The translations under genes were made by a program, and so were the position numbers. A DNA stretch of 64,000 bases, from assembly GCF_015852565.1 (NCBI RefSeq), contig NC_136191.1:11912578-11976577 (forward strand), in the 5' to 3' direction. The notes beneath the pieces are model-generated. The model did no database searches. It saw only the letters and a list, made by a program, of their open reading frames with translations, and was not told the DNA's origin. Positions within the stretch are counted from its first letter, which is position 1. The number at the start of each line of letters is the position of its first letter. Shown here in pieces: positions 5,599-59,457 of the stretch. Source of the DNA: Branchiostoma floridae (Eukaryota).

Positions 5599-8049
5599 AA
5601 TCGTACACTTGCCAAGCTGATTCATTTGTACCACAGTGATAAGCAAGATCACAGTCCCAAGTGCGCATGTGTAGCCGTGATGCATTGTGGTTTAAGGTCA
5701 ATGTTTAAGGCCCCTGGTAATTTTTATCAATGCTTGGGGTCATGGGCCTTACACCTGTGAACATGCGCACTTCGTACTGTGAATTGACTTATCAAAATTA
5801 ACAGTTGAGCCAAAAAGAGAGTTAGGCGCCTCACCACTTTTTGAGGACTTGGATTATGTTCATAGAGTCAAGTTGCCACTATACTATTGAGCTCAATTTG
5901 CCTGTAAATATTGCTATGTGCAAATGTACAAAAATGTAAGACTACCTTATCTTAGCTATACAATGTAAAAGAAACTGAAAGGAGTGGACCATTTGTAAGA
6001 TCAAGACAAAAGATATTCTTGCAGTGAAGTGTGACCTGGCAATGGCAGTACTTGTAGACACATACACAGCCTTGTATACTGGATATGACGGCGGCACGGC
6101 GGTTGTGTGCTCTATACTAAATTAAACCATGACATACCTGTGTGGAGACATAACAACCTTGCAAGACAGCCATGTGCTTATATATGACAAAATAGCCGAG
6201 GTGCTATTGCCGGACGTGACAAAACTGGTAAATTTTACCAGATTATATCGAGGCTTTGTAATCTGACCACGACAATGAATTATTTGCATGCTTGTATGGT
6301 ACATATTGTCAAAATAGGATTTGTGATTAGTATATATAGGTGTTGTTTTGAAATTGATTAGTCAGTAGTTACCAAGCCAATTAGGTGTTCACTTGCATGG
6401 TCCATTTATTCTTCATACCGCAAGTACAATAGATATTTGCATGACGGATGTCTCATGAAAACCCATGTAATTGTGCACTATTGTCTTATTGGTTTGCAAT
6501 ACATGAAATAAACAATAGTCATTCAAAATCTTTTAAAACAATTGTCTGGTATCATGAAATAAAAAAGTGCCAACAGTTGCGTTTGCTTTGTTTTTTTTTT
6601 TTTGCAAACGTGACACATTTCAGTTTTTAGACTTTACTTTACGCAAGTGTCAGGTGTTATTTTCTATTGGTTACAAGCTACGTTATCATTAATTCATTTA
6701 GAAATTGGTCACTTTACGAACTAATTGGAAAATTGAATTACATATGTATTGATAAAATTTGATACATTATCGATAAGTATTGCCCACAAGGTTAGATGAA
6801 GTCGCCATAGTTTAAATTAATAAATTAATAAAGTGGATACCATTTTCGGAAAAAGAAGGCAGCTCCAGACCTATAGAATCACGGTCTTCACTATGGCTGT
6901 GTCTCAAGTGATGTACCTTTCATTCTCTCAAATGATTGGTCACGATTGTCCAATACAATAAATACCATCATCTGTAGTTGATTGAAATTGGATGCCCCGA
7001 TCCCCGGCCCATTCAAGCAGATGCGAAAGTAGGCAAATCACTTTAACGTTTTCTGACCGGGCGACGTTTCTGCATTTCTCCATTGTTAGAAAAGCCATCC
7101 GGTCAGAAAACTGTGCAATTTTCTAACCACCCAAACATCTGCTTGGAGTTTAGCGTTGTCTGACCTAGGAAGTAAATGCCACAGGGGTCACGAGGGGTCA
7201 TGAGGCTTCTATGACAACACGCACGTACCATCCATGATTTGATTGATTTACTGGTCTTCTAGGTACAGAATCTGTGGAAATAAGAGTCTATTTCTCACTT
7301 GCTATAATACCTATCTTTGTTGATGAAGTTAGACTGACAGAATATGGCCTAATCTTGTGGGAAAAGCTCAGTTTAAGCATGTTGTTGTTGTCGGAAGATC
7401 CATGGTTACAACCGGTTTGACAGGTAAGCCCCCCTCCCCGCATACTTTCACTTGTATTGCTCTGTAAAAATACAATATCATTTGATCGGCTTTACAATAT
7501 GAAAGAAATTTACAGAAATGAGATAGTTATATCTGCATATCCTTTTCATCTAGTTACAATTGATCGTGTTAAATCTGGAAACAAACTACAATTTTCACAA
7601 ATGATAAATGACACCCTATGGCTGCTTTTGGTGTAGTGATATTAAACTACACAACTGCTTTACAAAGTCAGACATAACTGAGAAAAAACGTGGATGACAC
7701 TAAGATCACTTTGGGGTAAATATATGTCATTGAGAAATATAAACAATGGAATGAGACCATATGTAACCTAATTATGACAGGTTAGGGTAAACATACATTT
7801 GTATTTAGGTCATGAAAAGGCCATGATTATCAAAGCAAAATATTGCTGCCATCAATTTTATATTAAGTTACAATGCACAGATTTGAGATGAGAGCAGTAT
7901 ATGATCTAATAACAAATCCAAAAATTGTTATAGAAAAGCTCAATAAATGAACAAATAAATGATAAACATTTGCTACTGCAGCAGTATATTCTCTTCAATC
8001 ATATTGTTTACGATGATGTTTTCTGTGCAGTGTGTGAATCAGAGTGAAG

Positions 8050-8313
8050 ATGGGTTGTGGGGCGTCGACAAACTATCAGTACGAGGTGAACCTCACCTGG
8101 GAACAGGTGAGCCGCACCGTGGACACGCCCAGACCCAAGGACGACAAGCTGGTCCTCAGGCACTCCAACTGGAAAACTGTCCGCATCTTCGTCTCATCAA
8201 CCTTCAAGGACTTTCACTCGGAGAGAGACGTTCTCGTGAAGGAGGTGTTCGCAGACTTGAGACATTGGTGCGAGAAAAGGAGGCTACATCTTGTGGAATG
8301 TGATCTAAGATGG
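8050..8313 (+). CDS. NTPase-TPR gene exon 1
   Basis: Kozak tgaagATGG; MGCGASTNYQYEVNLTWEQVSRTVDTPRPKDDKLVLRHSNWKTVRIFVSSTFKDFHSERDVLVKEVFADLRHWCEKRRLHLVECDLRW; TGG|GTAAGA. Confidence 0.75.
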
Positions 8314-11300
8314 GTAAGAAAAATTGAGACTTTTGAAATAAGTAGAAACAGACAGAAACAATATAAAGTGTATGCAAAGATATCCTGACTTCCAGGATTC
8401 GAACCCACGCCGATCCCGGGCCGCCAGCTGGTCAGTTTAGCAGTCCTTGAACCTCACTGTTACACTTTCTTTATCTTGTAGGACAATCTTATGAGTTGCA
8501 TATGATATGTGATATGTTTTTAAGAGCATATAAGCATATACAATGTTTATCAGCAAAATGAAGACATTCTAGGCTGTAACATTAATGTACATGTATCAAC
8601 TTTTACACAGGGTATTCCCAAGGATACAACAACAGAGTTTACACTGAGGACATGCTTGGAGGAGATTGACAGGTGCTATGAAGACAACATCATGCCTTTC
8701 TTTCTCAACATGACCAGGTATTATTCAAATAATTGTTAATTGTTCTTTGTGCAGAGTTGCTAATTTTAGGAGACAAAACTTTCCAGTCTAGAAATGACCA
8801 TTACACATTTTGTTAATCAACTTTGCCCCAAGTAACTGAAGTTAGTTTGTCTGTCTGTCTGCCTGTGTGTCTATACTGCAGTTTCTGTATGTTCTGCCAG
8901 ATGGCATTTACTGTCAATTATATTTGTCTACAGTGAGAGATGTGGTTGGATCCCGGGTGTCCAGGAGGTACCTCCGCAGTTCGCAGCAGAGTATCGCTGG
9001 ATCCACGGCCTGTCTGTCACCGAGATGGAAATCATGCATGGAGCGTACAGGAAAGGCAACCCAAACTGTGAGTGGACTTAAAGATGTTGTTAATTTCATG
9101 CTCACAAACGATGCAAGCAAGCACAGAAAGTATGCATAGAAAGGCAGACTTTTAATCCAATACCTCAGAAAATACATTCTATTATAGTCTGTTAAATCTT
9201 TGAATAAGGATTCACTTTACTTGTAGTTTTTACATGATTCCAGACGCCTAAACTAACTTTGTCTCTGTTGTAAATTCCTTCCAGCCCTGTTCATGATCAG
9301 AGATGGCTCTTTCCTGGAGTCTGTACCTGAAAAACATCATAAAGACTTCATCGACATCACACCTGAGGCTCCCTTCAAACTCAAGATGCTGAAAAAGATG
9401 CTACAAGACAGATTTGATGTATGTTCCCTATTTGTACTATCTTATCTTTTCTTCAGTGAAAACAAAATTTTCTTCTTGTAGACTATTACAATGCTTCTAC
9501 ATACAGAAGAATGCCATAATTTTTCCTTCACATTAACCTAATCATTATGGGGCCCATTCAAGTTTTCCAAACAGTAAAGTAAAAGAAATGACCAGAAATT
9601 GCAAGGGATACTCACCTGTTCTCACCTGCCTCCAGCCCAGCCAGGTGTACCAGTACCAGTGTGAGGTCGCAGGGGTCAACTCAGAGGGCAGAGTTCAACT
9701 CAAGGGGCTGGAGAACTTCAGTCTGAAGGTACCCCAGGAATAGTTTAATGTCGGTTTAAGTTGAAATACTCAGATATTTTGTACAATTTGTACTATAGAT
9801 TGTGCTGTGGAACTTATTGGAAGGTTCAGTCTTTACTGATGATCTGTATGTTTATCATTAACATGCCTGATCATCTGTGTTTTTCAGGTGTTTGAGTTCT
9901 TCACACAGAGAGTAGGGGAGCAGTACCCACTGGAGGAGGTACAGACGGACCCATACAGACAACAGGAGGAGGCTCATGAGGTAAAGAGGAGAGGAAAAGT
10001 ACATGTACATGTATTAAGGATGGAAGCAAGTTGTTTCACAGCTATCAATGTTTGTATGAAAATGTCATTTTCTTTTGCGTCAATCTTGTATTTGACCTAA
10101 GGCAGGACAATTGACAATGGTACCATTTTAGATATTTGTTTTCTTCAAGCTTTTCCTTTACCCTATACAATATTAAATATGTATGCCATTGTGTTTTTGA
10201 TAAACAAGCAAACCACAAAATGAATGACTATTTGTAACAATAGTTGAATCAAAACAGAGACAATTTTGTTGATGTTGTATATCAATGTGAGCTGCATGAC
10301 ATGTAATCAAATGACATGTTGCAAGATTTTTTTTAATTGTCATTTACAACATTCTGTATGATTTTACCAGGCCTACATGAAGAATAAGGGAGACCTTGTT
10401 TTGGGAAGGGACTCCATCCTACAGGAGATCCAACTTTACATCACAGAACTGGGGGTGGACTATCCCATGCTGCTGGTGGGGGAGGCAGGGTCCGGCAAGT
10501 CAGCCATCATGGCCAGGGTAGCAGATGTGGCCACAACCAAGGCTCTGAACAAGGAGATACCTGGGTAGGCATATTGGAGGGATGTTTGGACATATAGTGT
10601 GTTATATGCAATTATGTACGTGTGAAACAACTTCACATTGAGTTAATTTATGATTTATATCAGGAGAATTTTATCCTGATTAACAGAAAGATGCTGTGTT
10701 TTTTTTGTCCATTCAGCGGAGGAGACACAGGCTGGCATGTGTTCTACCACTTTGTCGGAGCGATCCCAGGATCCACTGATCTGGAGACTATTCTGAAGAG
10801 GCTGCTGAGGGAGCTGGACATCGTCAATGTAAGTCTCACTGGGAACCCTACAAGTACAAGTGTCAATCATCCATTTTATGTACACAGGAACCACATACAG
10901 TATCACCAATGGGGCAGTTTTCAAAGGGCCCTCATGAATAAAAGATTATATGACATAACAAAAGCATTAATTTTCAAAGTAACTTAAAACTACATCAGAA
11001 GGCTACCACAAAGTAAGTAGATATACAGTAAAACCTACAGCAGTTGCTCAAGGGACTGGCCAGATTTGACCACTATGACAGGTGGTCAGTATGAAGAAAA
11101 GGCTAATGAATTGACCACTGGCAATTGGAGTTCTTGGTCTTACAGTTGCAATCCAAGTGCCGGATTCCGGTGTTCCAGATTTTAAGCCAAAGAAAGCACA
11201 TTAGTTGAGAACACATACACAACTAATGCTTACTTCTGATATCACTTATCAGGATACCACCATGCCCAAAGACATGGAGTCCACAGTACAGCTGACATGT

Positions 11301-26621: not shown

Positions 26622-29600
26622 GTATGTACTGATACTTAAAAACCTCTAAACATTCACAGTACAATTAACATTAACCCTAAAGGCATCGAGTAAGCATGCA
26701 TCAGCCCACACCCACTTTTGACATTCATTTGCGTCATCAATACGTTGAGAACTACATTTTGTACACAAGCTGTATTAATTCTTATCTACAAAAGCGTAAA
26801 GCAAAATGACAATTCTTTGTATCCAGATCAATGATAAAAAACATAACATTTTGAAGTAAAAGGTCCATGTTTCTAAAGAATTGCATGAATTTGTATACTG
26901 AATAATTTATTGTGTAATAACATTACATTGTTCTGCAGTCAATACCATTTTGGAAATTGGGTTTGATGAATAACATTTTTGAACTGGGAAACCTTGAGAA
27001 AACCTTGTTAATAAAGGTTTTTGTTCCATGATGCCCCCATGATGTAATGTTGGCATGGCAGGGTACAATATCATGTTCTTTTTTGGGAATTGTGCCAAAT
27101 TGTAAGGGGTAACTCATTAGTGTGTAGCCTAGGAATATGATACTAAATGTATTATGAAAAAAAGGGTGATTTTGTATTAGAATACCTTATGCACAATACC
27201 ACCCATTTTTTTCATAATAAAAACCTGACGTTGTGCATGTATATGCTTTTTGCTCAAATTTAGTCATTTAACATTATACATTATCAATAAGAAGATAACA
27301 AAATGTTGTAAATATCTTACCAACTTACATTATTGTGAGCTGAAATATGTTTGTTTATTTTGCTGTCTCCAGAGTTGTGCTTCCTCCAGAGAAGATGATC
27401 ACGGTGCCGCCGCGCCACTACTGCGTGGTGGAGAACCCCGTGGTGCGTGGCGAGGACGGCGCGCCCGTGTACGACACCAGCGGACAGGTGAAGCTGGTCC
27501 ACGCAGACCTGGAGATCCGCCTGGCGCAGGACCCCTTCCCACTCTTCCCTGGAGAAACTCTCAAACAGGTGGGTTTATACTATATGGCACAGGACCCCTT
27601 CCCACTCTTCCCTGGAGAAACACTCAAACAGGTGGGTTTATACTATATGGCTCAGGACCCCTTCCCACTCTTCCCTGGAGAAACACTCAAACAGGTGGGT
27701 TTATACTATATGGCACAGGACCCCTTTCCACTCTTCCCTGGAGAAACACTCAAACAGGTGGGTTTATACTATATGGCACAGGACCCCTTCCCACTCTTCC
27801 CTGGAGAAACACTCAAACAGGTGGGTTTATACTATATGGCACAGGACCCCTTCCCTCTCTTCCCTGGAGAAACACTCAAACAGGTGGGTTTATACTATAT
27901 GGCACAGGACCCCTTCCCTCTCTTCCCTGGAGAAACTATCAAACAGGTGGGTTTATACTATAAGGCACAGGACCCCTTCCCACTCTTCCCTGGAGAAACA
28001 CTCAAACAGGTGGGTTTATACTATATGGCACAGGACCCCTTCCCTCTCTTCCCTGGAGAAACACTCAAACAGGTGGGTTTATACTATATGGCTCAGGACC
28101 CCTTCCCTCTCTTCCCTGGAGAAACACTCAAACAGGTGGGTTTATACTATATGGCACAGGACCCCTTCCCTCTCTTCCCTGGAGAAACACTCAAACAGGT
28201 GGGTTTATACTATATGGCACAGGACCCCTTCCCACTCTTCCCTGGAGAAACACTCAAACAGGTGGGTTTATACTATATGGCACAGGACCCCTTCCCACTC
28301 TTCCCTGGAGAAACACTCAAACAGGTGGGTTTATACTATATGGCACAGGACCCCTTCCCACTCTTCCCTGGAGAAACACTCAAACAGATGGGTTTATACT
28401 ATAAGGCACAGGACCCCTTCCCACTCTTCCCTGGGGAAACACTCAAACAGGTGGGTTTAGAGGAAGGAATCATGAAGGAAAGCACTGTGTCTGTACATGT
28501 GGTGTACGACCACAAACTACTATATATACTTTTTCACCCTTCTCTTAGTCCTAAGCATAGCAATGCATTAAGCCATAGAATGCCCTTTACATTTTAACGC
28601 ACATTGGTTCTGACCAGAATTGTTCAACCAGAAGTTCTAAAGGAAGTCAGGACCAACTATTTTCTACCTGAGTCAACATATATAATCAAAGGTATCATGA
28701 GGGACCATAAATTTGATACCCCTTTAATTTGACACTTATGAGTACCTAGTGCCACTTAAAATCCAGCAGGGCAATGCTAAAATCCGTTAATTGCATAATT
28801 TCCGAGATGAGCAAAGTACCAAACTTAAAAAGGTACATTTTTGTATGTATGTGAGGTCCTGAGGGTTATATATTAAATGTAAGCCTGTATTGGATAAGTG
28901 TCAAAGGGCAAAGGACAAAATCAATTGTGATGTGATGTAGAATCACCCTTTGTCCCCTTCCCAAAGGTTGTTGTGCAAAAGATTAGAGATGGCCCGGTGA
29001 ACTTCAGGTTAAAGGTTACCAGACAAAGATGATAAAATTGAATAACAATACTTGTGATGCATTGACTTACAGAAATATAATGCAATGAAACTTTGGACCA
29101 TTGGAATAATCTCCAATCAGCTAGACATTTACAGAGGTCTAATGTATATTCTATAAGAAGTTTGTGTCTAAGATCTAGTTTATGCATTATCAATCATTTT
29201 TTGTTAGACTTGTTAGAAAAGTAACAACACTTTTTGACAGTTGTGAATACAGATAATGCTAGTTCACCTTTATTCATTGGGTAAGCTATATCCATTGCTT
29301 TAGAAAACAGGGTAGCTTGGGCACATCAAGTCGACGGTTGGTAGTTTAAACTGCAATATCCTCAAAATGTCGCAATTTGAAACCAATGTCCATCGACATG
29401 ATATCCACAAATACCCTGTTTTTAAAAGCAGGATATAGGTAACTCAACGGATAAAGGTGAACTAGCGTTACATGTTGTATACCTTCTCCCTTCTGTCTAA
29501 CCCAGTAATCGAGTACAGATTCTGTTCCAAAAGGCTGCCAGGGCAGGGAAAACATTGACAGATACATTTTGTTCATGATTGTTCCCCCTTCCAGAATGTG

Positions 29601-38980: not shown

Positions 38981-40118
38981 AAAGCATGGATGAACCCTCG
39001 TAAAATAGTTTTATAAGACATGTAATGCTGCAGTAACTGTTGAGCTCCATGGAGTTGTATGAAAATGATTTGTTACTTTACCACAGAAATGAATACTGGA
39101 TAGAATGGACTTAAAGGAAAGTATAACTTTCAAAAAGAACTTCTATGAATTGTTCTACTTCAAGTGTTAAAGAGGGAACCCTTACCAATATATGGCTGCA
39201 ATCCCTACCTATTGGATAGGGGAGGGGATAGAACTACATATTTGAAGTGTTTCTTACATTACTCAATATGTACAATGCAAATGCTGTGCTAGGGAGTTAT
39301 CAAAGTCAGGGAGGGGGCTAGAAGTAAAACCATTAAAAACTATGGAAGAGAGACCTGTGCAGGATGTGTGTTTTTTCACTCCAAGAAACAAGTCCAAAAT
39401 ACACTTAAACATGCATAAGGCAGCTGTATTTTGACCACCAAAGAAATGTACTGTAAGTAAGATACTAGTACTATTGATAATCCCGTTTCTATGGTGAAAA
39501 GTGTTGAAGAAACATAAAAAACAAAAAAAATATGCACCAATCTGGCTTATGTCGTGTTGTTGATATTCTATCGTGATTGGGTGGAGTGTGGTTCTGATGA
39601 TATGTAGGTTTGATGGCTGTCACTGATAGTTGTTCTACTTAATATGTTTATCTCTGTATGATAAAAACACTACAAATGATATAAAGTTTTGAAGAAGTAG
39701 ATTCTATATTGAACAGATTATCACATGGTGTCAAAAGTCTTCAGATTCAAATTATACAACATGTATGTAACACTACTACAGACTTAGTTTAGAAGCTATT
39801 CCTTGCTTCTTTGTGCAATATTACTACGGTGTTAACTTCTGCACTGTATTACTTTTTCTACATTTTGTACTTTTTGATAGTGGTTTTCTGCACTTTTGCC
39901 AGTCATTTAAGATACTTTTTTTGTGCAGGTTGATTACATTTCTGTTTCTGTAAGTACAAGTTCAACAATGTTCTTTATGCCTTGAAAATAAAGCTTCACA
40001 AAAGGATATATTAAGGCATGTTTTGTCTTAATGGCAATAGTCATGATAAACACTGACCATGCAACTAAAACTTTGGTACAGTTTGATAACCATGTGACGT
40101 TATGTAAAAAATATACAT

Positions 40119-40296
40119 AACACAACTTCACCTTTATCCGTGAGGTAACCTATATCCATTGTTTGATAAAAACAGAGTATATAGGGATAATAATTTGATG
40201 GATACATGTATTTTCAATTTTGTAGTTAAAAACCATCATCGGTCGCTCCCTTAATACGGACATAGGTTACGCCACGAATAAAGGTGAACTAGCGTT
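40119..40296. mobile_element. MITE family A, copy 3 (left TIR partly truncated), downstream of the MVP 3' UTR.
   Basis: aacttcacctttatccgtgaggtaacctatatccattg ... cgaataaaggtgaactagcgttaa. Confidence 0.7.
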
Positions 40297-41394
40297 AACT
40301 GTTAACAACAAAATGCAAACATGTATGATCCACTAAATGAAGATGTTGCTTACAAAAGGTAAGAATTGGCAGCTTTCTTTTAATTCAGTATAAACATTTT
40401 CCCTGTTTATATTGAGACAAAACAAAATGTTGACAAATGCTGTGTTGTTGACTTGAGACTTGAAGACTGCATGCCAGGAAGTTTAGGATATGTCCAGAAG
40501 TTGTTTATCATTTTACATATACATCTTAACATCATAATAATACTATAACTCTGTCATGAGAAACCATTAGTCAGTGGCAATAACAAGGTTCAACCACAGC
40601 CTAAACATTTCACCAGCCCTCGTCATTGTCAAGTGAGGCTTCTGAGAGTGTCGGGAGTTCAACAGTGCCTTTCGGTCTCAACAACTCCGGAGTGACGGGT
40701 CTGACTAGTAGCGGAGGTGCGTTCGGGTCTAAGGAGATGGAACTTCGTGGTGAAGCGAAGGGGCCGGCCTCAAGGCCCTTCCCGCCAAAAGCATGGTCAC
40801 TTGCTGATCTGCATACGAAAGATCAAACGTTTTGATAAAAAAAGTCCTCTTCCTCGGACTTCCAAACTATGGAACTCTCGATGACAACTATTTGCCTCCT
40901 GTATGCAATCTACAGGCTTTCAAAACCAGTGTTCACCTCAAAATGATTTTCATCATGCATTATATTCATAGCATTGCATTAAACAAAACCGTTAGATTGG
41001 CAGTAGGTATCGTAAGATTTAGGATTCAAGTGTTTTGTGTTGTTTGTAGAAATATATCTCTGCGTCCAAAGTAAAACCGATATCTCTCATAGTTTGTAGA
41101 GAAATAAGGAAAACCATTGAATTTATTGTGCGTACTTGCCCCATTGGGCTAAGTATAGGTCGCAAAATATTGCTTACGATATATTTTGTACATTCCAGCT
41201 AGTCTTGAAAACTATGGATACAGAAATTTAGTATGTGAATTTGCCTTCTTGTCTATGTGTAATCATCGTGCCATGGATATATAAAAGAAAATATTGCAAC
41301 GTTACATTTATAGTTTTGTTTGTTTCCCCCTTCCTTGCCCCTGAAGTAGTTATGTTGGGTGGCAAAGAAAAAGTATGGCAAGTATATCTAAATG

Positions 41395-41688
41395 CTAAAG
41401 AAATATTAATTTGTCACTACTGCTTTTAGTGTATCGAGTAAAAACAAGAGTCGTTTGTGCGTACCCTTCATCTTGTTCTTCGGCGATTGCGGCCACCCCT
41501 GGAGCAATGGAAGACCGTCTTCGAGACCTCCTTCTCGCCCTGTTCATTCTCTGCAGTTCCTCCTGTGCGGAGATAGGGATATCCTCGTCTTCTTCCCCCA
41601 TCACTGTGATCATCGGAGTTTGTGAAATTGTTTCCGCCCGTTTTAATAGATGAATAGAGGAGGCTCGTTTTGAGATCGTACATCCCAT
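41395..41688 (-). CDS. Single-exon small ORF of 97 aa. It has an MGCTISK N-terminus (a consensus N-myristoylation and palmitoylation motif) and an RRRSRRRSSIAPG basic/phospho-site motif. It is a paralogue of the ORF at 46539-46721.
   Basis: The ATG at 41686-41688 (minus strand) sits in the Kozak context atcaaaATGG. MGCTISKRASSIHLLKRAETISQTPMITVMGEEDEDIPISAQEELQRMNRARRRSRRRSSIAPGVAAIAEEQDEGYAQTTLVFTRYTKSSSDKLIFL*. No homolog is recognised. Confidence 0.35.
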   Translation of the reverse strand: MGCTISKRASSIHLLKRAETISQTPMITVMGEEDEDIPISAQEELQRMNRARRRSRRRSSIAPGVAAIAEEQDEGYAQTTLVFTRYTKSSSDKLIFL

Positions 41689-43445
41689 TTTGATCACGTG
41701 TCGGCAAAAGGTTTGTTGACAAGTCTGCCCATGTTAAGTCCTCAAGATTTTCTTTTGGGGTCGTTGTGCCCTTGTGGAATGTTTTGAGATGTTCGCGACT
41801 AAGGGTAACAAGTAATGCGCTACACTGTTTCGTCATATTTGTTTGTGACGTTTTGAGACATGTTCCGTGGAAAACTAATCTTCAAGCAGATGTCGGGACG
41901 AGAATCAGTATCTAACAACTACTTGTTGGAAACCTTTTTTCGATAGTGTTCCTTTTGCTTCTATTTGTAGAGCATTAGATTTGTGAAGTTCTTTATGTCA
42001 TTTACAAATCGTTCTTTCGTGTGTTAATCTTCATGCAGACTTTACTGGAAGTACAAGAATTTCGAAAATCTTCTAGAATTCAAATAGCTGAGGAATTTAT
42101 CCGCTGTGTTTATTCTACTACTACAGACACTGTCCTCTTGCTCAAATAGTCCTCGATTATTTGATCTCAATACTCAAAACATAGTAGCGGCCGCGGTTTT
42201 CCGCGGTATGGGCTTAATACGTCGGCTATGCTATGAGTCCTTTGTTTGGCTACATTGGTTGGAAAATACTCAAAAGCTTAACCGTTACTTCAAAAGCACA
42301 TGAGAAACAGAGCAAATTGTTACACATGTTACCAATTCAAAAGTAACGTTACCTAGTCGCAATTTCAGTTTTTGGCATGCGGGGAATGGCCACATGACTG
42401 TCCTTGTCAAGCTGCCAAAGTAAAATATATGGACATAATGTTGGTCTCTAGAGCTATCTTTTCAGCATAAGCAGTTGTTAATACCGTTACAACGTATGGT
42501 ATAAAAGGTGGCGTTCTACGGTAAACCGACAGGGCAGTTGTTCTTGGGGTCAGCTGAGGACACAAGGGTTACCTACGGTCAACGGAGGGTCACCTCAGTT
42601 CTATGACGTCTCCATTTTGACTTCTATGACGTTCAGAGTTACCAGTCTGAGAACAAAATAAGCACGCCAAAACTTTACCAAGTCGTCTCCAGGGCCCCGA
42701 TTGAAAGACGATGTTATTCCGGTAAGAACCATATTTGTTTGTCTTGCAACATCATATGTGTATGTAGCCAACCGTTACACTATCCTAGGAGAAGAATTAC
42801 ATGGTGAGAGCGTTGATTATAGAATGTTGACGCCTTAGCCGGTTGATACCATCTTGAAACCTTCTGACTCGCAAGTTTAAGAAGTTCAACTGATATTGAT
42901 CTAGCCATGCCAGATGATATGAGGTAGAAAACAACTACATCTATGTAACAGTTACACAGTGCAATATTGATAGTCCCTGGAGCATGCGTATTTGTAATCG
43001 CATAGTCTTTTTAGCGAATGCCCACGAACGCCCACTCTGGAGAAGTCCGCGCTGCACCAATGAGAGTTAGTGGCATATTTCTACATAACGCCAGTTGTAT
43101 CTAGTAGCAATGGGCCCTGGTGCGAAAACATGTATTACCGTATTGTATCAGTAACACGAATTTCTGAAGAGCTTGGCACAAACATGAACGAAGGACATTG
43201 TGCGATTACAGTTTTCATCATCCAGAATATATGTAATTCTACACCAAACTTTTTTCTTCCTTCGGAGAAAGATCGATGTTTTCTGAAAGCTTCTGACCAC
43301 ATCGTCTATTCGTCGTGAGTGATAGATTTATTTTGTATGTTCATATTTTCAAACAAGACTTCGGAGGCCTCTGTGTCGAGTTGAAGGCTAGAAATTCTGT
43401 ACTGGTATTGTCACTTTGGTCTGCCATAGGTCATGACTCATGACT

Positions 43446-43562
43446 ATTCTCCAAGCAGAGGTTGGGTCGCGGTGTGGGATAGTAGTGGCCGGGAGGGGAG
43501 CGAACCGGTAAAAATGCCGGCCACTACTACAGTATCCCCTCGACCCAACCTCTGCTTGGAAC
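43446..43562. mobile_element. MITE family B, short copy (~115-bp hairpin element with CTCCAAGCAGAGGTTGGGTCG TIRs).
   Basis: tctccaagcagaggttgggtcgcggtgtggg ... ccctcgacccaacctctgcttggaaca. Confidence 0.6.
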
Positions 43563-43990
43563 ATAGGTCATCTCGATGTCCCACCTGTGACTGCCATGTG
43601 AAGTTGGGAATGAAGTTCACTCTTGACATTGCCATTACTGCCTTCTCGGTAACGATGTCCGACATCTCTTCATAAACGGGTAAGTAACTTGTCTGAAGCA
43701 AATGCCATTGGGGAAATCCGTCGTACTTGGTTTGACGCTGCAGCTGATATTTTGAATTCCAATTCGCAATTCTATATATACACTCTGTGGATGGATCGTA
43801 TTTGTATTAATGAATGAGAAGTAATGAGTGTACACAAAAGACGTGGATGTGCGTCGAAGATTAATGACATTTGTACTGTTCAGAAATCACGTGCTTTGAC
43901 CAATTCTCTAAAAGTATAAGAATCATTGTATTTCATACCAATAACATCTGTGAATCTTCCTCAAAGGTTTTTTCTACTTTACTTTAAAAC

Positions 43991-44968
43991 TTGATATTCA
44001 AGATAATCTTCCAGCTACCATTGAAGAAAAACACATCTTCTACATTGAATAGTACTTATGTTGTATGTTTGGAAAGAGATACTGATAAAGAAATGCTATT
44101 GCGTCATGCCAATAGCCAAATTTTACGAGAGAACGGCTTCCAAATTATAAACATGAACTCAAATCAACAAATTCCAGAATTTGACATCATTGACATGCGC
44201 TTCCAAAAATTTCTGTTAGGCATTCATGCTAAAGCCTCAAACGATGGTGTCAGGGGAGAATTAGGAACCTTCCCAGCTATGATTGATGCCGAAATACAAC
44301 TTGTAAAATGTTGGCATCGTTTAGTTAATTTGCCAGAAGATGCTCTTCTTAGCGAGGCATACAATACCGTTTTACTCGGAGAACATGATTGGTTTGTCCA
44401 CGTAAAAAATATCCTCAATTACCAAGGCTTTGGACACATATGGCTGAACCCGAGGTCATACCACATAGACACAATCACCACTCAGCTACGACAACGTTTA
44501 CAAGATATATACGTGCAAAATTGGCATTCCTCTATTCGAAACAATTCCAAACTCTCCTCTCTTTCTACATTGAACAAGCATTACAAGCAAGAAAATTACA
44601 TTTCAACCATAAAGAGCCTTGACATTCGTAGGTCAATCACACAAATCAGAATTGGCTGTCACAAATTAAATATAGAAACCGGGAGATTCCAAAAAATCCC
44701 TATAGATCAGAGGGTTTGTCCATTCTGTCCAGAGCTAATTGAAGACGAAAATCACTTTATGGTTGTATGTCCCAAATATTCTGATATACGAAATTCTCTG
44801 TACACAAGGCTGTCATCTTATACACAAGGATTTATCTCGATGGACCTGAAGTGCAAATTCAAATACATCATGACATGTGACAATCCCCGCATGACAGATA
44901 TAGGAAAATATATCAAAGAAGGTTTAGACATTAGAAATTCCTCCAATGATTGTAAAAGCCTCCAATAA
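43991..44968 (+). mobile_element. 5'-truncated non-LTR retrotransposon (LINE, CR1/L2-like) ORF2 C-terminal fragment.
   Basis: A 325-aa ORF contains the LINE ORF2 post-RT hallmark FLLGIHAKASNDGVRGELGTFPAMIDAEIQLVKCWHRL and the C-terminal CX2C...HF(M/L)..CP.Y...R zinc-knuckle-like motif (CPFCPELIEDENHFMVVCPKYSDIR). No upstream RT or endonuclease is present in frame, so the copy is truncated and dead. Confidence 0.7.
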
Positions 44969-45310
44969 CTGTAAGAAACTTATCCCATACCACAACTTCT
45001 GTATTAGTTAGATAAGCGTTAAGTTATAGAACTGTAGTTATGTAGATGCCATACTTTGTACCCCGTACAATTGTTGTGCAAAAAAACTATACATGTTTAT
45101 CATTAGTGGTCTTCAATAATCTAAATGCCAACAAGATGCCAACGCAAACAAGGTGTTTAAAATTCAATCAGATTACTCAGATTGACGTGACTTTTCGGGT
45201 TTTCCTTTTCAACTATTCTCACTAAGTTACGTTCACTTACACTGATCTATTTATTTCTTGATAGCTGCACACAACATATACAACTATTCAAGACGACTGC
45301 TTCCACTGAA

Positions 45311-45560
45311 AAGTGTCACTTTAATTCTATATCCCTTACGTTATAACGCATGAATATATTAAAACGTTACAACAGTTCGACTGTTCGGCGCATTATCACT
45401 CTCAGCTGATCAATATTGAATATTGAGTGGATATGTCACTTTGGTTCTAGTTCGTTTTTTACAGTTTTGTTATAACGCACAGCGGTTCGGCATTGTATCA
45501 ACCTCAGTTGATCAAAATTCAATATTGAGTGAATAGTGACATTTTCATTCTCCTGCTATA
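45311..45560. repeat. Tandem duplication (~125-bp unit, 2 diverged copies and a partial third).
   Basis: ...gtcactttaattctat..gttataacgca..cagttcgactgttcggcgcattatcactctcagctgatcaatattgaatattgagtggat compared with atgtcactttggttctag..gttataacgcacagcggttcggcattgtatcaacctcagttgatcaaaattcaatattgagtgaat. Confidence 0.7.
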
Positions 45561-46538
45561 AAAAAACACGCCATTCTGATGTAGTGTAGCAGATCATACA
45601 TTTACACTTTGTGTGTCAAGGGCAAGAAAATACCACGATATGTCTATTACAAAATATTATCGATATCAGTTCCACTTTATCGGTACAGTTTTCTCCAGAT
45701 CTGCTGTTCTGATAAACTATGATCTTGGGGGGTCCCGCCTGTCGCTGTGATGAGATGATCTGCTCTGGTCGGAGACATCTTCCCCGTAAGCGATGTTCGC
45801 GCTCTCCGATGAGCCAAAATCCCAGCTGCCGGCCTCCCTGGTAGACAAAGGGAGGTACGTTTGGTTATCATTTCGGTACGGCGGTTTTTTCTGCTCATGT
45901 TGATAGATATCTTGCCTATAACCTCATCTCCTCACTGTCCTTCTTAGTCCGCTCCCAACGATCGCTACTCCGCCAATAACTTGCCTAACCCCTGCCATTG
46001 AACAATAATGATTTGAACCAGCAACCTTTATGCTTAGGCTACACTTCCAACCCGTGGCCCGGCCCTGCTGTTTGCCGAAACGACAATTTTCTTAAAAAAC
46101 ATGCATAAATTGTGCTCATGTCTGATTATTCTTACGTTTTACATGCTTTGTTTTTTTGTATATCAAATTTTTCGTTTCGACCTAAGCATAAGCGGGACTA
46201 CTACGTATCACACCAGACCGCCATGACATTCAAAAGACGCTGACTTGACAAAAGACGCTATTGAACATATTTTACAGCTCAAACGTGAACGAATTGTCCA
46301 AAACAGACGGCGGGAATGGGAATCTTTGTCTTTCCTATCGTAGTGAACATTCAATGAGATGCCCTGATCAGCCTGTGTCACACTCCCTTGTGTCAGGCTC
46401 ATCGTGTAACGTTACGGGATCCAGAGTGGTCCAGGGGCCTTCCGTGCCATGGCCGGCCCAGCCCTTGGTGTAGAAGTGTATGAGGTAGGTAGAAATAGGA
46501 CGCTAACCAATTCCATATATGTATGCTACGTTGCAGAC

Positions 46539-46721
46539 CTACTCTTCATCAGGATCGTCTTGAATTGTATCCAGTCCCGGCACCACCGACGCTCTCCGTG
46601 CCGTCCGTTTGGGTTGTCTCCGCCGAACCTCTTCCGGTGAGCTAGAAGGATTGCTTTTTGAGGATTGCTTGCCTCCTTGCTGCTTACTTTTCTTTTTAAT
46701 CTTTGACGGGACAGAACCCAT
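46539..46721 (-). CDS. Single-exon small ORF of 60 aa. It has an MGSVPSK N-terminus (N-myristoylation consensus), a polybasic stretch and a kemptide-like RRASV site. It is a paralogue of the ORF at 41395-41688.
   Basis: ATG 46719-46721 sits in the Kozak context aaaaacATGG. MGSVPSKIKKKSKQQGGKQSSKSNPSSSPEEVRRRQPKRTARRASVVPGLDTIQDDPDEE*. It shares EE(L/V)xR..(K/R)R.ARR(A/S)S(V/I).PG and an acidic tail with the 41395 ORF. Confidence 0.35.
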   Translation of the reverse strand: MGSVPSKIKKKSKQQGGKQSSKSNPSSSPEEVRRRQPKRTARRASVVPGLDTIQDDPDEE

Positions 46722-47578
46722 GTTTTTCTTTCCCTATTAGTGCAGTGATGTATGTTCCCTTGTTTGATTGTGACGTAATAAATGATGTTTTTCCGTCATA
46801 GAATAACGTAGACCACGTCATGAATGTGACATGGCAACGAGCAGCATGCAGGAGAAATCCAGAGCATTTTAAAATTTAGTCGTTTCCTTAATGTCCAGCT
46901 AACAGAAAGTTTTATGCTCTTTAATACAGAGTGCCAAGCCAGGGGGCTCATGTAGCATACGGCATGTGTCTGTTGCTCGGCAATTCGTTTCGACCTCCGG
47001 AATTTCTTTTTCCTTGTTCTGCCAATACGGCCTGCGTGCCGTCTCCGTGTGAGGCGAGAGTTGTTCCAAATATGCAATGCCCACTTTCTGTGGTCCTTTA
47101 AAGTATCATCATCTTGTTGACATGTTCTAGAACAGCGTTTCGTCGATCAAGCCGTCGAAGAATAACAGAAATGAGCGCGCCCAACATTACTAAAAATCAT
47201 AGTTGCTACAATCTTAAAAACAAACACACACACACACATACGTCGACGTTTCTACTCGATCGTTTGCTGTTTAGAATTTCTAAGATAAATGACCAGTATT
47301 GGGTTGCTCCTGGCGACTTGTACCTGCACTGCACGTATATCCAGTGCGTTCACCTTTCATGACCTTAACGAATTCTAGGGTGATCACTCATTACCAGGTG
47401 ATGACACCAGGTGCTACATCTCTGCATAACAAGGAGGATTAATTTCAGCGTCGTGTCGAGTGGGCAGTGCATGGTACAGCCAACATTACCGTAGATTTCT
47501 TCATCGGTTTAAGCGCCCACTCCACCTCACCACAGGAACATCTTGCTGTGTACCGTCGTGTCATTTTGTGGCCCAGCC

Positions 47579-59457
<11,879 letters not shown>

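What the first reader, a model, noticed from the sequence alone, without database searches (positions are those of the whole stretch)
41395..46721. Two tandem paralogous minus-strand small ORFs encoding putative myristoylated basic phosphoproteins
ORF 41395-41688 (97 aa, MGCTISK...) and ORF 46539-46721 (60 aa, MGSVPSK...) are about 5 kb apart on the minus strand. Each has an ATG in good Kozak context (A at -3, G at +4). Both start with the N-myristoylation consensus MG-x-x-x-S-K. Both share a motif EE(L/V)xR..R.ARR(A/S)S(V/I).PG followed by an acidic tail. RRASV is a textbook PKA/PKG substrate site. ORF2 also has a polybasic KIKKKSK stretch like myristoyl-electrostatic-switch proteins (MARCKS/BASP1-like). 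I do not recognise the family. Two diverged copies that keep the same motifs argue against random ORFs.
Basis: partly seen in the sequence, partly recalled or inferred. Interest (0 to 1): 0.55.

Follow-up and report, generated by a model that had tools for sequence, protein, structure and literature searches.

The report
Two lipid-anchored amphioxus paralogue genes
The two small ORFs are the first exons of two real neighbouring sister genes, found only in amphioxus, that encode small unstructured proteins with a conserved fatty-acid anchor signal and a protein-kinase-A-type phosphorylation site; their function is untested.

Summary
The window is Branchiostoma floridae DNA. Each ORF is the first coding exon of a two-exon minus-strand gene.

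- Gene 1: CDS 41688..41465 + 40808..40610, 140 aa. It equals LOC118425507 / C3YDH8, annotated "uncharacterized protein".
- Gene 2: CDS 46721..46543 + 45837..45717, 99 aa. It is annotated only in B. belcheri (LOC109467578).
- ORF1's last 22 residues are intron read-through. ORF2's stop codon lies inside its splice donor.

Both genes lie in the same order (protease, gene 2, gene 1, MVP) in three Branchiostoma species. Reading frames and splice sites are intact, all indels are in frame, and dN/dS is 0.22-0.45.

Evidence for paralogy:
- hhalign E = 2.6e-5.
- The same phase-2 intron in the same aligned codon.
- The same MGxxxSK start.
- The same R-x-x-R-R-x-S-(I/V)-x-P-G core.
- A shared upstream 9-mer, ACGTCACAA.

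A profile search of 1.84 billion proteins found the family only in Branchiostoma. Pfam, PDB and the literature gave nothing. AlphaFold indicates disorder.

Best reading: membrane-anchored, disordered substrates of PKA/PKG-type kinases. Gene 1 would use myristoyl plus palmitoyl, gene 2 myristoyl plus a polybasic stretch. The gene structure is shown; the biochemistry is inferred. Interest is modest.

The parts
41465..41688 (-). Gene 1 coding exon 1 (codons 1-74 plus two bases of Gly75). Contains MGCTISK, an acidic patch, the predicted helix AQEELQRMNRARRRSRR, the site RRRSSIAPG and the acidic EEQDE.
   Evidence: 95% identical to B. floridae LOC118425507 (P0096) over residues 1-77. The donor GAAGG|GTACGC is conserved in all species.
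40809..41464 (-). Gene 1 intron, 656 nt, phase 2 (GT...TGCAG). The tail of ORF1 (41395-41464) is read-through into this intron.
   Evidence: The spliced model reproduces the annotated proteins of three species exactly. The intron does not align between species, whereas the exons do.
40610..40808 (-). Gene 1 coding exon 2: SASDHAFGGKG...SEASLDNDEGW plus TGA.
   Evidence: tblastn to P0096 residues 76-140, 98% identical, E = 1.6e-39. Coordinates verified.
41689..41896 (-). Gene 1 conserved 5' flank (5'UTR or promoter). It holds ACGTCACAA (41851-41843), TGACG (41835-41831), a 12-codon uORF MGRLVNKPFADT* (41732-41694) and the E-box CACGTG (41700-41695).
   Evidence: The block aligns at 78-80% with B. 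lanceolatum and B. belcheri. The motifs and the uORF are intact in all three species.
40379..40384 (-). ATTAAA, a candidate polyadenylation signal of gene 1, 225 nt after the stop.
   Evidence: Hexamer scan. It lies inside the conserved 3' block 40831..40324. Not verified by transcript data.
46543..46721 (-). Gene 2 coding exon 1 (codons 1-59 plus two bases of codon 60). Contains MGSVPSK, the polybasic KIKKKSK, PEEVRR, the site RTARRASVVPG and the acidic DDPDE.
   Evidence: 100%, 77% and 72% identical in B. floridae, B. lanceolatum and B. belcheri, with one in-frame 4-codon deletion. The donor AAGA|GTAGGT is conserved.
45838..46542 (-). Gene 2 intron, 705 nt, phase 2 (GTAGGT...TCTACCAG). ORF2's TAG (46541-46539) lies in the donor.
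   Evidence: Only this donor/acceptor pair gives a consistent product in all four sequences, and it reproduces the annotated 108-aa B. belcheri protein.
45717..45837 (-). Gene 2 coding exon 2: EAGSWDFGSSESANIAYGEDVSDQSRSSHHSDRRDPPRS plus TAG.
   Evidence: In the B. belcheri comparison the conserved block 45867..45704 matches the exon closely.
46768..46829 (-). Gene 2 upstream conserved elements: ATGACGT (TGACG at 46820-46816), TGACG (46798-46794) and TTACGTCACAA (ACGTCACAA at 46776-46768). The last is the perfect CRE palindrome TGACGTCA in B. lanceolatum.
   Evidence: The region lies between gene 2 and the divergent protease gene (ATG about 47579, + strand), so the elements could serve either gene.

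Best explanation
Two tandemly duplicated, cephalochordate-restricted genes each encode a small, intrinsically disordered protein. The likely mechanism is as follows. The protein is N-myristoylated on Gly2 during translation and held on the cytoplasmic face of membranes by a second signal. In gene 1 that signal is palmitoylation of Cys3 (MGC). In gene 2 it is a polybasic stretch (K-x-KKK). A basophilic AGC kinase, most likely PKA or PKG, then phosphorylates the invariant Ser of R-x-x-R-R-x-S-(I/V)-x-P-G. This changes how the Arg-rich segment and the adjacent acidic/FG segment interact with the membrane or with partner proteins. Shown here: the gene models, coding status, paralogy, conservation of the motifs, disorder, and absence of homologues outside Branchiostoma. 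Inferred from motifs and general knowledge: the lipidation, the kinase and the switch.
For: Gene structure and coding status:
- Spliced models reproduce the annotated proteins of three species.
- Gene order protease, gene 2, gene 1, MVP is kept in B. floridae, B. lanceolatum and B. belcheri.
- Only exons and short flanks align with B. belcheri.
- dN/dS is 0.22-0.45, with Fisher p from 7e-3 to 6e-8. Differences are commonest at third codon positions, significantly so (p < 0.05) in four of six pairwise comparisons. All indels are in frame.

Paralogy:
- hhalign of the two orthologue alignments gives E = 2.6e-5, 45 columns, 40% identity, spanning the exon junction.
- Both genes have a phase-2 intron in the same aligned codon.
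- Both start MGxxxSK.
- ACGTCACAA occurs only twice in the window, 163 and 55 nt upstream of the two ATGs on the gene strand.

Motifs:
- MGCTISK is invariant in gene 1 and MGS(V/F)PSK in gene 2. Both fit PROSITE PS00008 (G-{EDRKHPFYW}-x(2)-[STAGCN]-{P}) and have the favourable Ser6-Lys7.
- The columns invariant across both paralogues are Arg at P-6, P-3 and P-2, Ser at P0, Pro at P+3 and Gly at P+4, with Ile/Val at P+1 in B. floridae. P-6, P-3, P-2 and P+1 are the positions that PKA uses to recognise PKI and RII (my own knowledge of Knighton et al. 1991 and the Kemptide work).

Disorder: AlphaFold2 gives mean pLDDT 54.6 and pTM 0.16, with only a helix at residues 41-57. Disorder-promoting residues make up 62-72%.
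Against: - No experiment or transcript data were available. Transcription, myristoylation, palmitoylation and phosphorylation are all untested.
- Basophilic sites are not kinase-specific, and Arg-rich stretches can also act as nuclear-localisation or RNA-binding signals.
- P+1 of gene 2 varies between species (V, M, A).
- Gene 2 is absent from the B. floridae gene list of the fetched locus. My spliced model is not in the protein collection for B. floridae or B. lanceolatum.
- In B. floridae the gene 2 C-terminus is 8-9 residues shorter than in the other species.
- Within B. floridae, gene 1 differs at four residues between haplotypes (dN/dS 0.8 on very few changes).
Confidence: 0.55

Rival explanations
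1. The proteins are membrane-tethered, substrate-type inhibitors or docking sites for the PKA catalytic subunit, as the RII inhibitor site or PKI are. They would hold or silence the kinase at the membrane rather than act as downstream effectors.
For: The residues invariant between the paralogues (Arg at P-6, P-3, P-2, Ser at P0) plus a hydrophobic P+1 and a preceding predicted helix match the layout of PKI(5-24) and the RII site RRxSV (my own knowledge).
Against: No Pfam match to PKI (PF02827) or any R-subunit domain at E <= 10. There is no equivalent of PKI Phe10, no nuclear export signal and no cNMP-binding domain. High-affinity binding cannot be inferred from a consensus site.
Confidence: 0.15
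2. The Arg-rich core is a nuclear-localisation or nucleic-acid-binding element. The proteins would shuttle from membrane to nucleus, as the myristoylated messenger Jacob/NSMF does, or would not be lipidated at all. The RRxS resemblance to a kinase site would be secondary.
For: RARRRSRRRSS and RRRQPKRTARRAS are Arg clusters compatible with a basic nuclear-localisation signal (sequence). The proteins are disordered.
Against: Strict conservation of Ser at P0, the hydrophobic P+1 and the following Pro-Gly in both paralogues is not required for a nuclear-localisation signal. The invariant MGxxxSK start argues for lipidation.
Confidence: 0.1
3. The two ORFs are alternative first exons of one downstream gene, or exons of one longer transcript.
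For: They lie on the same strand, share an N-terminal motif, and each ORF ends at a splice donor.
Against: Each exon has its own conserved second exon with its own stop codon within 0.7 kb. Three annotation pipelines give separate genes. Directly downstream of gene 1 is the 3' end of the convergent MVP gene.
Confidence: 0.02
4. The ORFs are chance ORFs or conserved non-coding sequence, and the gene models are annotation artefacts.
For: ORFs of 60-100 codons are common in this window: 56 ORFs of at least 40 aa overlap this 7 kb. No transcript evidence could be retrieved.
Against: dN/dS is well below 1. Indels are in frame, splice sites are conserved, conservation is limited to exons, and differences are most frequent at the third codon position.
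Confidence: 0.02

Closest known systems
MARCKS / MARCKS-like proteins (Pfam PF02063), the model of the myristoyl-electrostatic switch
   Same: An N-terminal myristoylation signal, intrinsic disorder, and a basic cluster containing kinase-target serines that could release the segment from acidic membranes when phosphorylated.
   Different: No sequence similarity (no Pfam hit at E <= 10). These proteins are much smaller (99-140 aa). The site is PKA/PKG-type (RRxS-hydrophobic), not the PKC-type Lys/Phe-rich effector domain. There is no MH2 region.
BASP1 / CAP-23 / NAP-22 (Pfam PF05466)
   Same: Gene 2's start MGSVPSKIKKKSK resembles BASP1's MGGKLSKKKKGY: myristoyl-Gly, Ser6-Lys7, then a polybasic run. 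Both are acid-soluble-type disordered proteins (my own knowledge of the BASP1 sequence).
   Different: The resemblance is confined to about 13 residues of a functional motif. There is no Pfam hit. BASP1 has no RRxS(V/I)xPG core and no FG motif. Gene 1 has Cys3 instead of a polybasic run.
SH4-type dual acylation signals (Met-Gly-Cys of Lck, Fyn and G-alpha-i) and the small membrane AKAP smAKAP/C2orf88
   Same: Gene 1 starts MGC, the pattern for myristoylation of Gly2 followed by palmitoylation of Cys3. smAKAP is likewise a protein of about 100 aa, starting MGC, in PKA signalling.
   Different: There is no kinase, G-alpha or AKAP amphipathic helix. The predicted helices (11-18, 41-57) are highly charged, not an RI/RII-docking helix. 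No Pfam match.
PKA recognition sequences: Kemptide LRRASLG, the RII inhibitor site RRxSV, PKI pseudosubstrate RTGRRNAI (PF02827)
   Same: Arg at P-6, P-3 and P-2, Ser at P0 and Ile/Val at P+1, invariant or nearly so in both paralogues and all species.
   Different: This is a short linear motif shared by convergence, not evidence of homology. There is no cNMP-binding domain and no PKI family match. Only a sub-threshold hit to PF16643 (E about 0.05, 14 bits against a cut-off of 27) in the low-complexity Arg/Ser region of gene 1.

Membership tests
N-myristoylated proteins (NMT substrates) | Met-Gly start fitting PROSITE PS00008, G-{EDRKHPFYW}-x(2)-[STAGCN]-{P}, ideally with Ser/Thr at position 6 and Lys at position 7 | tested here: met
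   GCTISK and GS(V/F)PSK fit the pattern and are conserved in three species. These are the only two MGxxx[ST]K ORFs in the window.
N-myristoylated proteins (NMT substrates) | Covalent myristate on Gly2 in vivo | not testable with these tools
   Needs metabolic labelling or mass spectrometry.
Myristoyl + second-signal membrane proteins | A second membrane signal next to Gly2: a palmitoylatable Cys, or a polybasic cluster | tested here: met
   Cys3 is invariant in gene 1. K9-K10-K11 are invariant and the flanking residues mostly Lys in gene 2. Whether either signal is used is not testable here.
PKA/PKG substrates | R-R-x-S/T followed by a hydrophobic residue, conserved in orthologues | tested here: met
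   RRSS60-I in gene 1 and RRAS45-(V/M/A) in gene 2. Arg at P-6, P-3 and P-2 and Ser at P0 are invariant across both paralogues.
PKA/PKG substrates | Phosphorylation by the kinase | not testable with these tools
   Needs a kinase assay or phosphoproteomics.
MARCKS (PF02063) / BASP1 (PF05466) / PKI (PF02827) sequence families | Significant match to the family profile | tested here: not met
   hmmscan against Pfam-A at E <= 10 lists none of them for either ORF, for three gene-1 orthologues or for three gene-2 orthologues.
cNMP-binding protein linker (PF16643, cNMPbd_u2) | Score above the gathering threshold (27 bits), in a protein with cNMP-binding domains | tested here: not met
   14.2-14.8 bits, E = 0.04-0.06, for gene 1 in two of three species only. 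There is no cNMP-binding domain and no hit for gene 2.
Branchiostoma LOC118425507 / LOC109467578 family (uncharacterised) | Orthology: sequence identity, same exon structure, same genomic neighbours | tested here: met
   Gene 1 is 97% identical to P0096. Gene 2 is 74% identical to the B. belcheri 108-aa protein (P0099) in the orthologue alignment. Gene order is the same in the loci of all three species.

The most novel reading that the evidence does not exclude
This is a chordate-lineage-specific, de novo or fast-evolving family of lipid-anchored regulators of cAMP signalling. The genes would themselves be cAMP-responsive, through conserved CRE-like TGACG/ACGTCA elements upstream of both paralogues. 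The proteins would be phosphorylated by, or would inhibit, PKA at the membrane, forming a small feedback module. The two paralogues would be sorted to different membrane domains by palmitate versus polybasic second signals.
Probability: 0.12. Interest if true: 0.5.

Novelty: new member of a known kind. Interest (0 to 1): 0.3.

Why it matters
If the inference holds, amphioxus has a private pair of very small membrane-anchored kinase substrates. The two differ in the two textbook "second signals" for myristoylated proteins: palmitate in one, a polybasic patch in the other. That would be a neat natural experiment in subfunctionalisation after tandem duplication, and an example of a taxonomically restricted, motif-only protein family kept under selection.

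Practical points:
- Gene 2 is not in the B. floridae gene list of the fetched locus (it is annotated in B. belcheri) and could be added.
- The two "uncharacterized proteins" can be linked as one family.

It does not bear on a long-standing open question. Lineage-restricted disordered proteins are common.

Tried and rejected
- The word-index protein search with ORF2 found nothing. This was a false negative, because the B. belcheri orthologue shares many 5-mers and was found later.
- Exact look-ups of the raw ORFs, of the spliced window gene-1 protein, and of my gene-2 models found nothing. So no transcript-derived contigs were obtained.
- I searched for orthologous loci through an MVP exon. This first gave two compact MVP loci from unrelated organisms (L001, L002) with no ORF1/ORF2 relatives, so I dropped them.
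- DNA-level comparison of the two gene neighbourhoods (blastn, tblastx, repeat finder) found no similarity. The duplication is therefore old and visible only at protein, intron-position and motif level.
- My early idea that the ORFs were alternative first exons of a PKA regulatory-subunit-like gene is rejected. No cNMP-binding exon lies downstream, and each gene ends after its own second exon.
- I first read the two introns as different phases (1 and 2). That was a misreading; both are phase 2.
- Pfam, PDB sequence and literature searches gave no family, structure or paper.
- Resemblances to TUSC2, HSPB6 (RRASAP, 14-3-3 mode I) and Arp2/3-binding acidic-Trp tails came from memory only. I did not pursue them. 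Pro is at P+3, not P+2, so the canonical 14-3-3 motif is not met.
Full report
**What is at the coordinates**

Both ORFs exist as described on the minus strand. The window is amphioxus DNA. It carries two copies of the Branchiostoma microRNA family mir-2060. It aligns at 95-97% with the B. floridae assembly GCA_000003815.2. A major vault protein (MVP) gene lies on the + strand up to about 39 kb. An LDLa/TSP1/trypsin-type protease gene lies on the + strand, with its ATG at about 47579 and trypsin-like exons visible from about 49.5 kb.

**Gene models**

The word-index search with ORF1 returned three annotated proteins of 140-147 aa:
- B. floridae LOC118425507 / C3YDH8
- B. lanceolatum Hypp450
- B. 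belcheri Bbelb_146150

They match ORF1 only as far as ...EEQDEG and then continue SASDHAFGGKG.... That continuation is encoded at 40808..40610.

- Gene 1 is therefore CDS 41688..41465, a 656-nt phase-2 intron (GG|GTACGC...TGCAG|A), then CDS 40808..40610. The product is 140 aa. ORF1's last 22 residues are intron read-through.
- ORF2 is conserved in the three orthologous loci at 100%, 77% and 72% identity, with one in-frame 4-codon deletion.
- In B. belcheri, ORF2 is annotated as exon 1 of a 108-aa protein (KAI8507234.1, XP_019621159.1).
- Only one donor/acceptor pair works in all four sequences: AAGA|GTAGGT ... TCT(A/C)(C/A)CAG|.
- In the window this gives gene 2 as CDS 46721..46543, a 705-nt phase-2 intron, then CDS 45837..45717. 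The product is 99 aa. ORF2's TAG lies inside the donor.

**Are they real genes?**

- The order protease, gene 2, gene 1, MVP is the same in all three species.
- Against B. belcheri, conservation around gene 2 collapses almost exactly onto its two exons. Around gene 1 it covers the exons plus about 200 nt of 5' flank and about 130 nt after the stop codon (about 290 nt against B. lanceolatum). The introns do not align and differ in length.
- Between species, dN/dS is 0.22-0.38 for gene 1 and 0.26-0.45 for gene 2. Fisher tests give p from 7e-3 to 6e-8. Differences are most frequent at third codon positions, significantly so in four of six pairwise comparisons. Every indel is a multiple of three.
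- I could not obtain direct transcript evidence. The only indirect support is that independent annotation pipelines produced the same models.

**Are they paralogues?**

- BLASTP of the raw ORFs gives 13/32 identities.
- tblastn of the gene-1 orthologue against the whole window finds ORF2 as the only non-self hit, E = 5e-4 (composition-based statistics off, which is liberal here), with the next hit at 0.35.
- hhalign of the gene-1 orthologue alignment (A1) against the gene-2 alignment (A2) gives E = 2.6e-5, probability 75%, 45 columns at 40% identity. The aligned stretch runs through the exon junction into xAxxxxFG of exon 2.
- Both genes have a phase-2 intron in the same aligned codon, Gly75 and Glu60.
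- They are the only two of 259 ATG-ORFs of at least 50 codons in the window that start MGxxx[ST]K. None of 100 shuffles produced any.
- The 9-mer ACGTCACAA occurs exactly twice in 64 kb. Both copies are on the gene strand, 163 and 55 nt upstream of the two ATGs, inside blocks conserved between species.
- There is no DNA-level similarity between the two genes. Since both are present in all three species, the duplication predates their divergence.

**What the proteins look like**

- Gene 1: MGCTISK is invariant. Then come a short conserved segment SSIHLLKRAE, an acidic patch, the predicted helix AQEELQRMNRARRRSRR, the site RRSS-I-APG, acidic EEQDE, SASDHAFGGKG, a Pro/Ser-rich stretch, and a conserved acidic C-terminus ending in Trp (SLDxDExW). 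The pI is 5.25.
- Gene 2: MGS(V/F)PSK, the polybasic K-x-KKK-x-K, PEEVRR, R-T-A-R-R-A-S-(V/M/A)-V-P-G-L-D, acidic DDPDEE, AGxW-x-FG, and a Ser/Asp-rich tail. The pI is 9.1.
- Across both paralogues the invariant core residues are Arg at P-6, P-3 and P-2, Ser at P0, Pro at P+3 and Gly at P+4. P+1 is Ile or Val in B. floridae.
- AlphaFold2 on the gene-1 alignment gives mean pLDDT 54.6 and pTM 0.16, with no fold beyond a helix at 41-57. The alignment was shallow, so this agrees with intrinsic disorder but does not prove it. Composition points the same way.

**Comparison with what is known**

- A profile of both paralogues (A3) searched with HMMER against 1.84 billion representative proteins returned only the gene-1 and gene-2 clusters, both from Branchiostoma.
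- Pfam-A at E <= 10 gave nothing. The one exception was a sub-threshold hit of gene 1's Arg/Ser-rich stretch to PF16643 (14 bits against a cut-off of 27), which I treat as compositional.
- PDB sequences and full-text literature searches (gene and protein identifiers, motif peptides) gave nothing.
- The family is therefore annotated but uncharacterised. As far as these searches reach, it is restricted to cephalochordates.

**Mechanism (inference)**

- From established knowledge, a Met-Gly start fitting PS00008 with Ser6-Lys7 is the N-myristoyltransferase signal.
- Myristate alone binds membranes weakly and needs a second signal. That signal can be palmitate on a neighbouring Cys (the MGC of Lck, Fyn and G-alpha-i) or a polybasic patch (Src, MARCKS, BASP1). 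The two paralogues carry one each, and each is conserved.
- R-R-x-S-hydrophobic with an extra Arg at P-6 is the PKA/PKG recognition pattern seen in Kemptide, the RII inhibitor site and PKI.
- I therefore propose membrane-anchored, disordered PKA/PKG substrates. Phosphorylation inside the Arg cluster would alter contacts with the membrane or with partners.
- Rivals: a substrate-type PKA inhibitor or docking protein; a nuclear-localisation or nucleic-acid-binding role for the Arg cluster; alternative first exons of one gene; chance ORFs. The last two are effectively excluded by the data above.
- The conserved CRE-like half-sites upstream of both genes suggest cAMP-responsive transcription. Those of gene 2 lie in an 860-nt head-to-head region shared with the protease gene. 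This remains a lead only.

**Verdict**

The finding is two real, already (partly) annotated, lineage-restricted genes of unknown function, belonging to the familiar class of lipid-anchored disordered kinase substrates. Interest is modest.

Noticed in passing
window 27347-28597 (+): Inside the MVP gene, a 63-nt unit encoding [21 protein letters not shown] is repeated head-to-tail about 15 times. It appears to be the end of an MVP exon plus the start of its intron, amplified in tandem.
   Followed up: no
window 49970-50063 and 50153-50243 (+): Two copies of the mir-2060 microRNA precursor (88 and 65 bits) sit in a repetitive stretch of the protease gene region. This is what first identified the window as Branchiostoma.
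   Followed up: partly
window 40122-40295: A 174-nt segment present in the window is absent from the B. floridae reference locus L003. It coincides with a 40-nt terminal inverted repeat pair, 40118-40157 / 40258-40297. It looks like a polymorphic MITE-like insertion between the 3' ends of gene 1 and MVP.
   Followed up: partly
window 43991-44968 (+): A 325-aa ORF between the two genes resembles the C-terminal part of a non-LTR retrotransposon ORF2, with a Cys/His motif near its end, but has no Pfam match. Nearby, the reference haplotype carries extra segments of about 700 and 160 nt relative to the window.
   Followed up: no
window 41694-41732 (-): A 12-codon upstream ORF (MGRLVNKPFADT*) ends 5 nt before the gene 1 start codon. 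It is intact and of the same length in all three species, and it overlaps a conserved CACGTG E-box.
   Followed up: partly
window 46722-47579: Gene 2 and the LDLa/TSP1/trypsin protease gene are head-to-head, with ATGs about 860 nt apart ([15 protein letters not shown]... signal-peptide-like start at about 47579, + strand). The conserved CRE-like elements could therefore belong to a bidirectional promoter. The B. lanceolatum protease model extends across gene 2 on the other strand.
   Followed up: partly
window 8044-8388 (+): An exon-like ORF, MKMGCGASTNYQYEVNLTWEQ...FKDFHSERDVLVKEVF..., also has an internal Met-Gly-Cys start. From memory it resembles the N-terminus of NACHT/TEP1-type proteins. 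It is unrelated to the two genes studied.
   Followed up: no
tool behaviour: The word-index homologue search returned no candidate for ORF2, although a 72%-identical annotated protein (P0099) is in the collection. Negative results of that tool for short, charge-biased queries are unreliable.
   Followed up: yes
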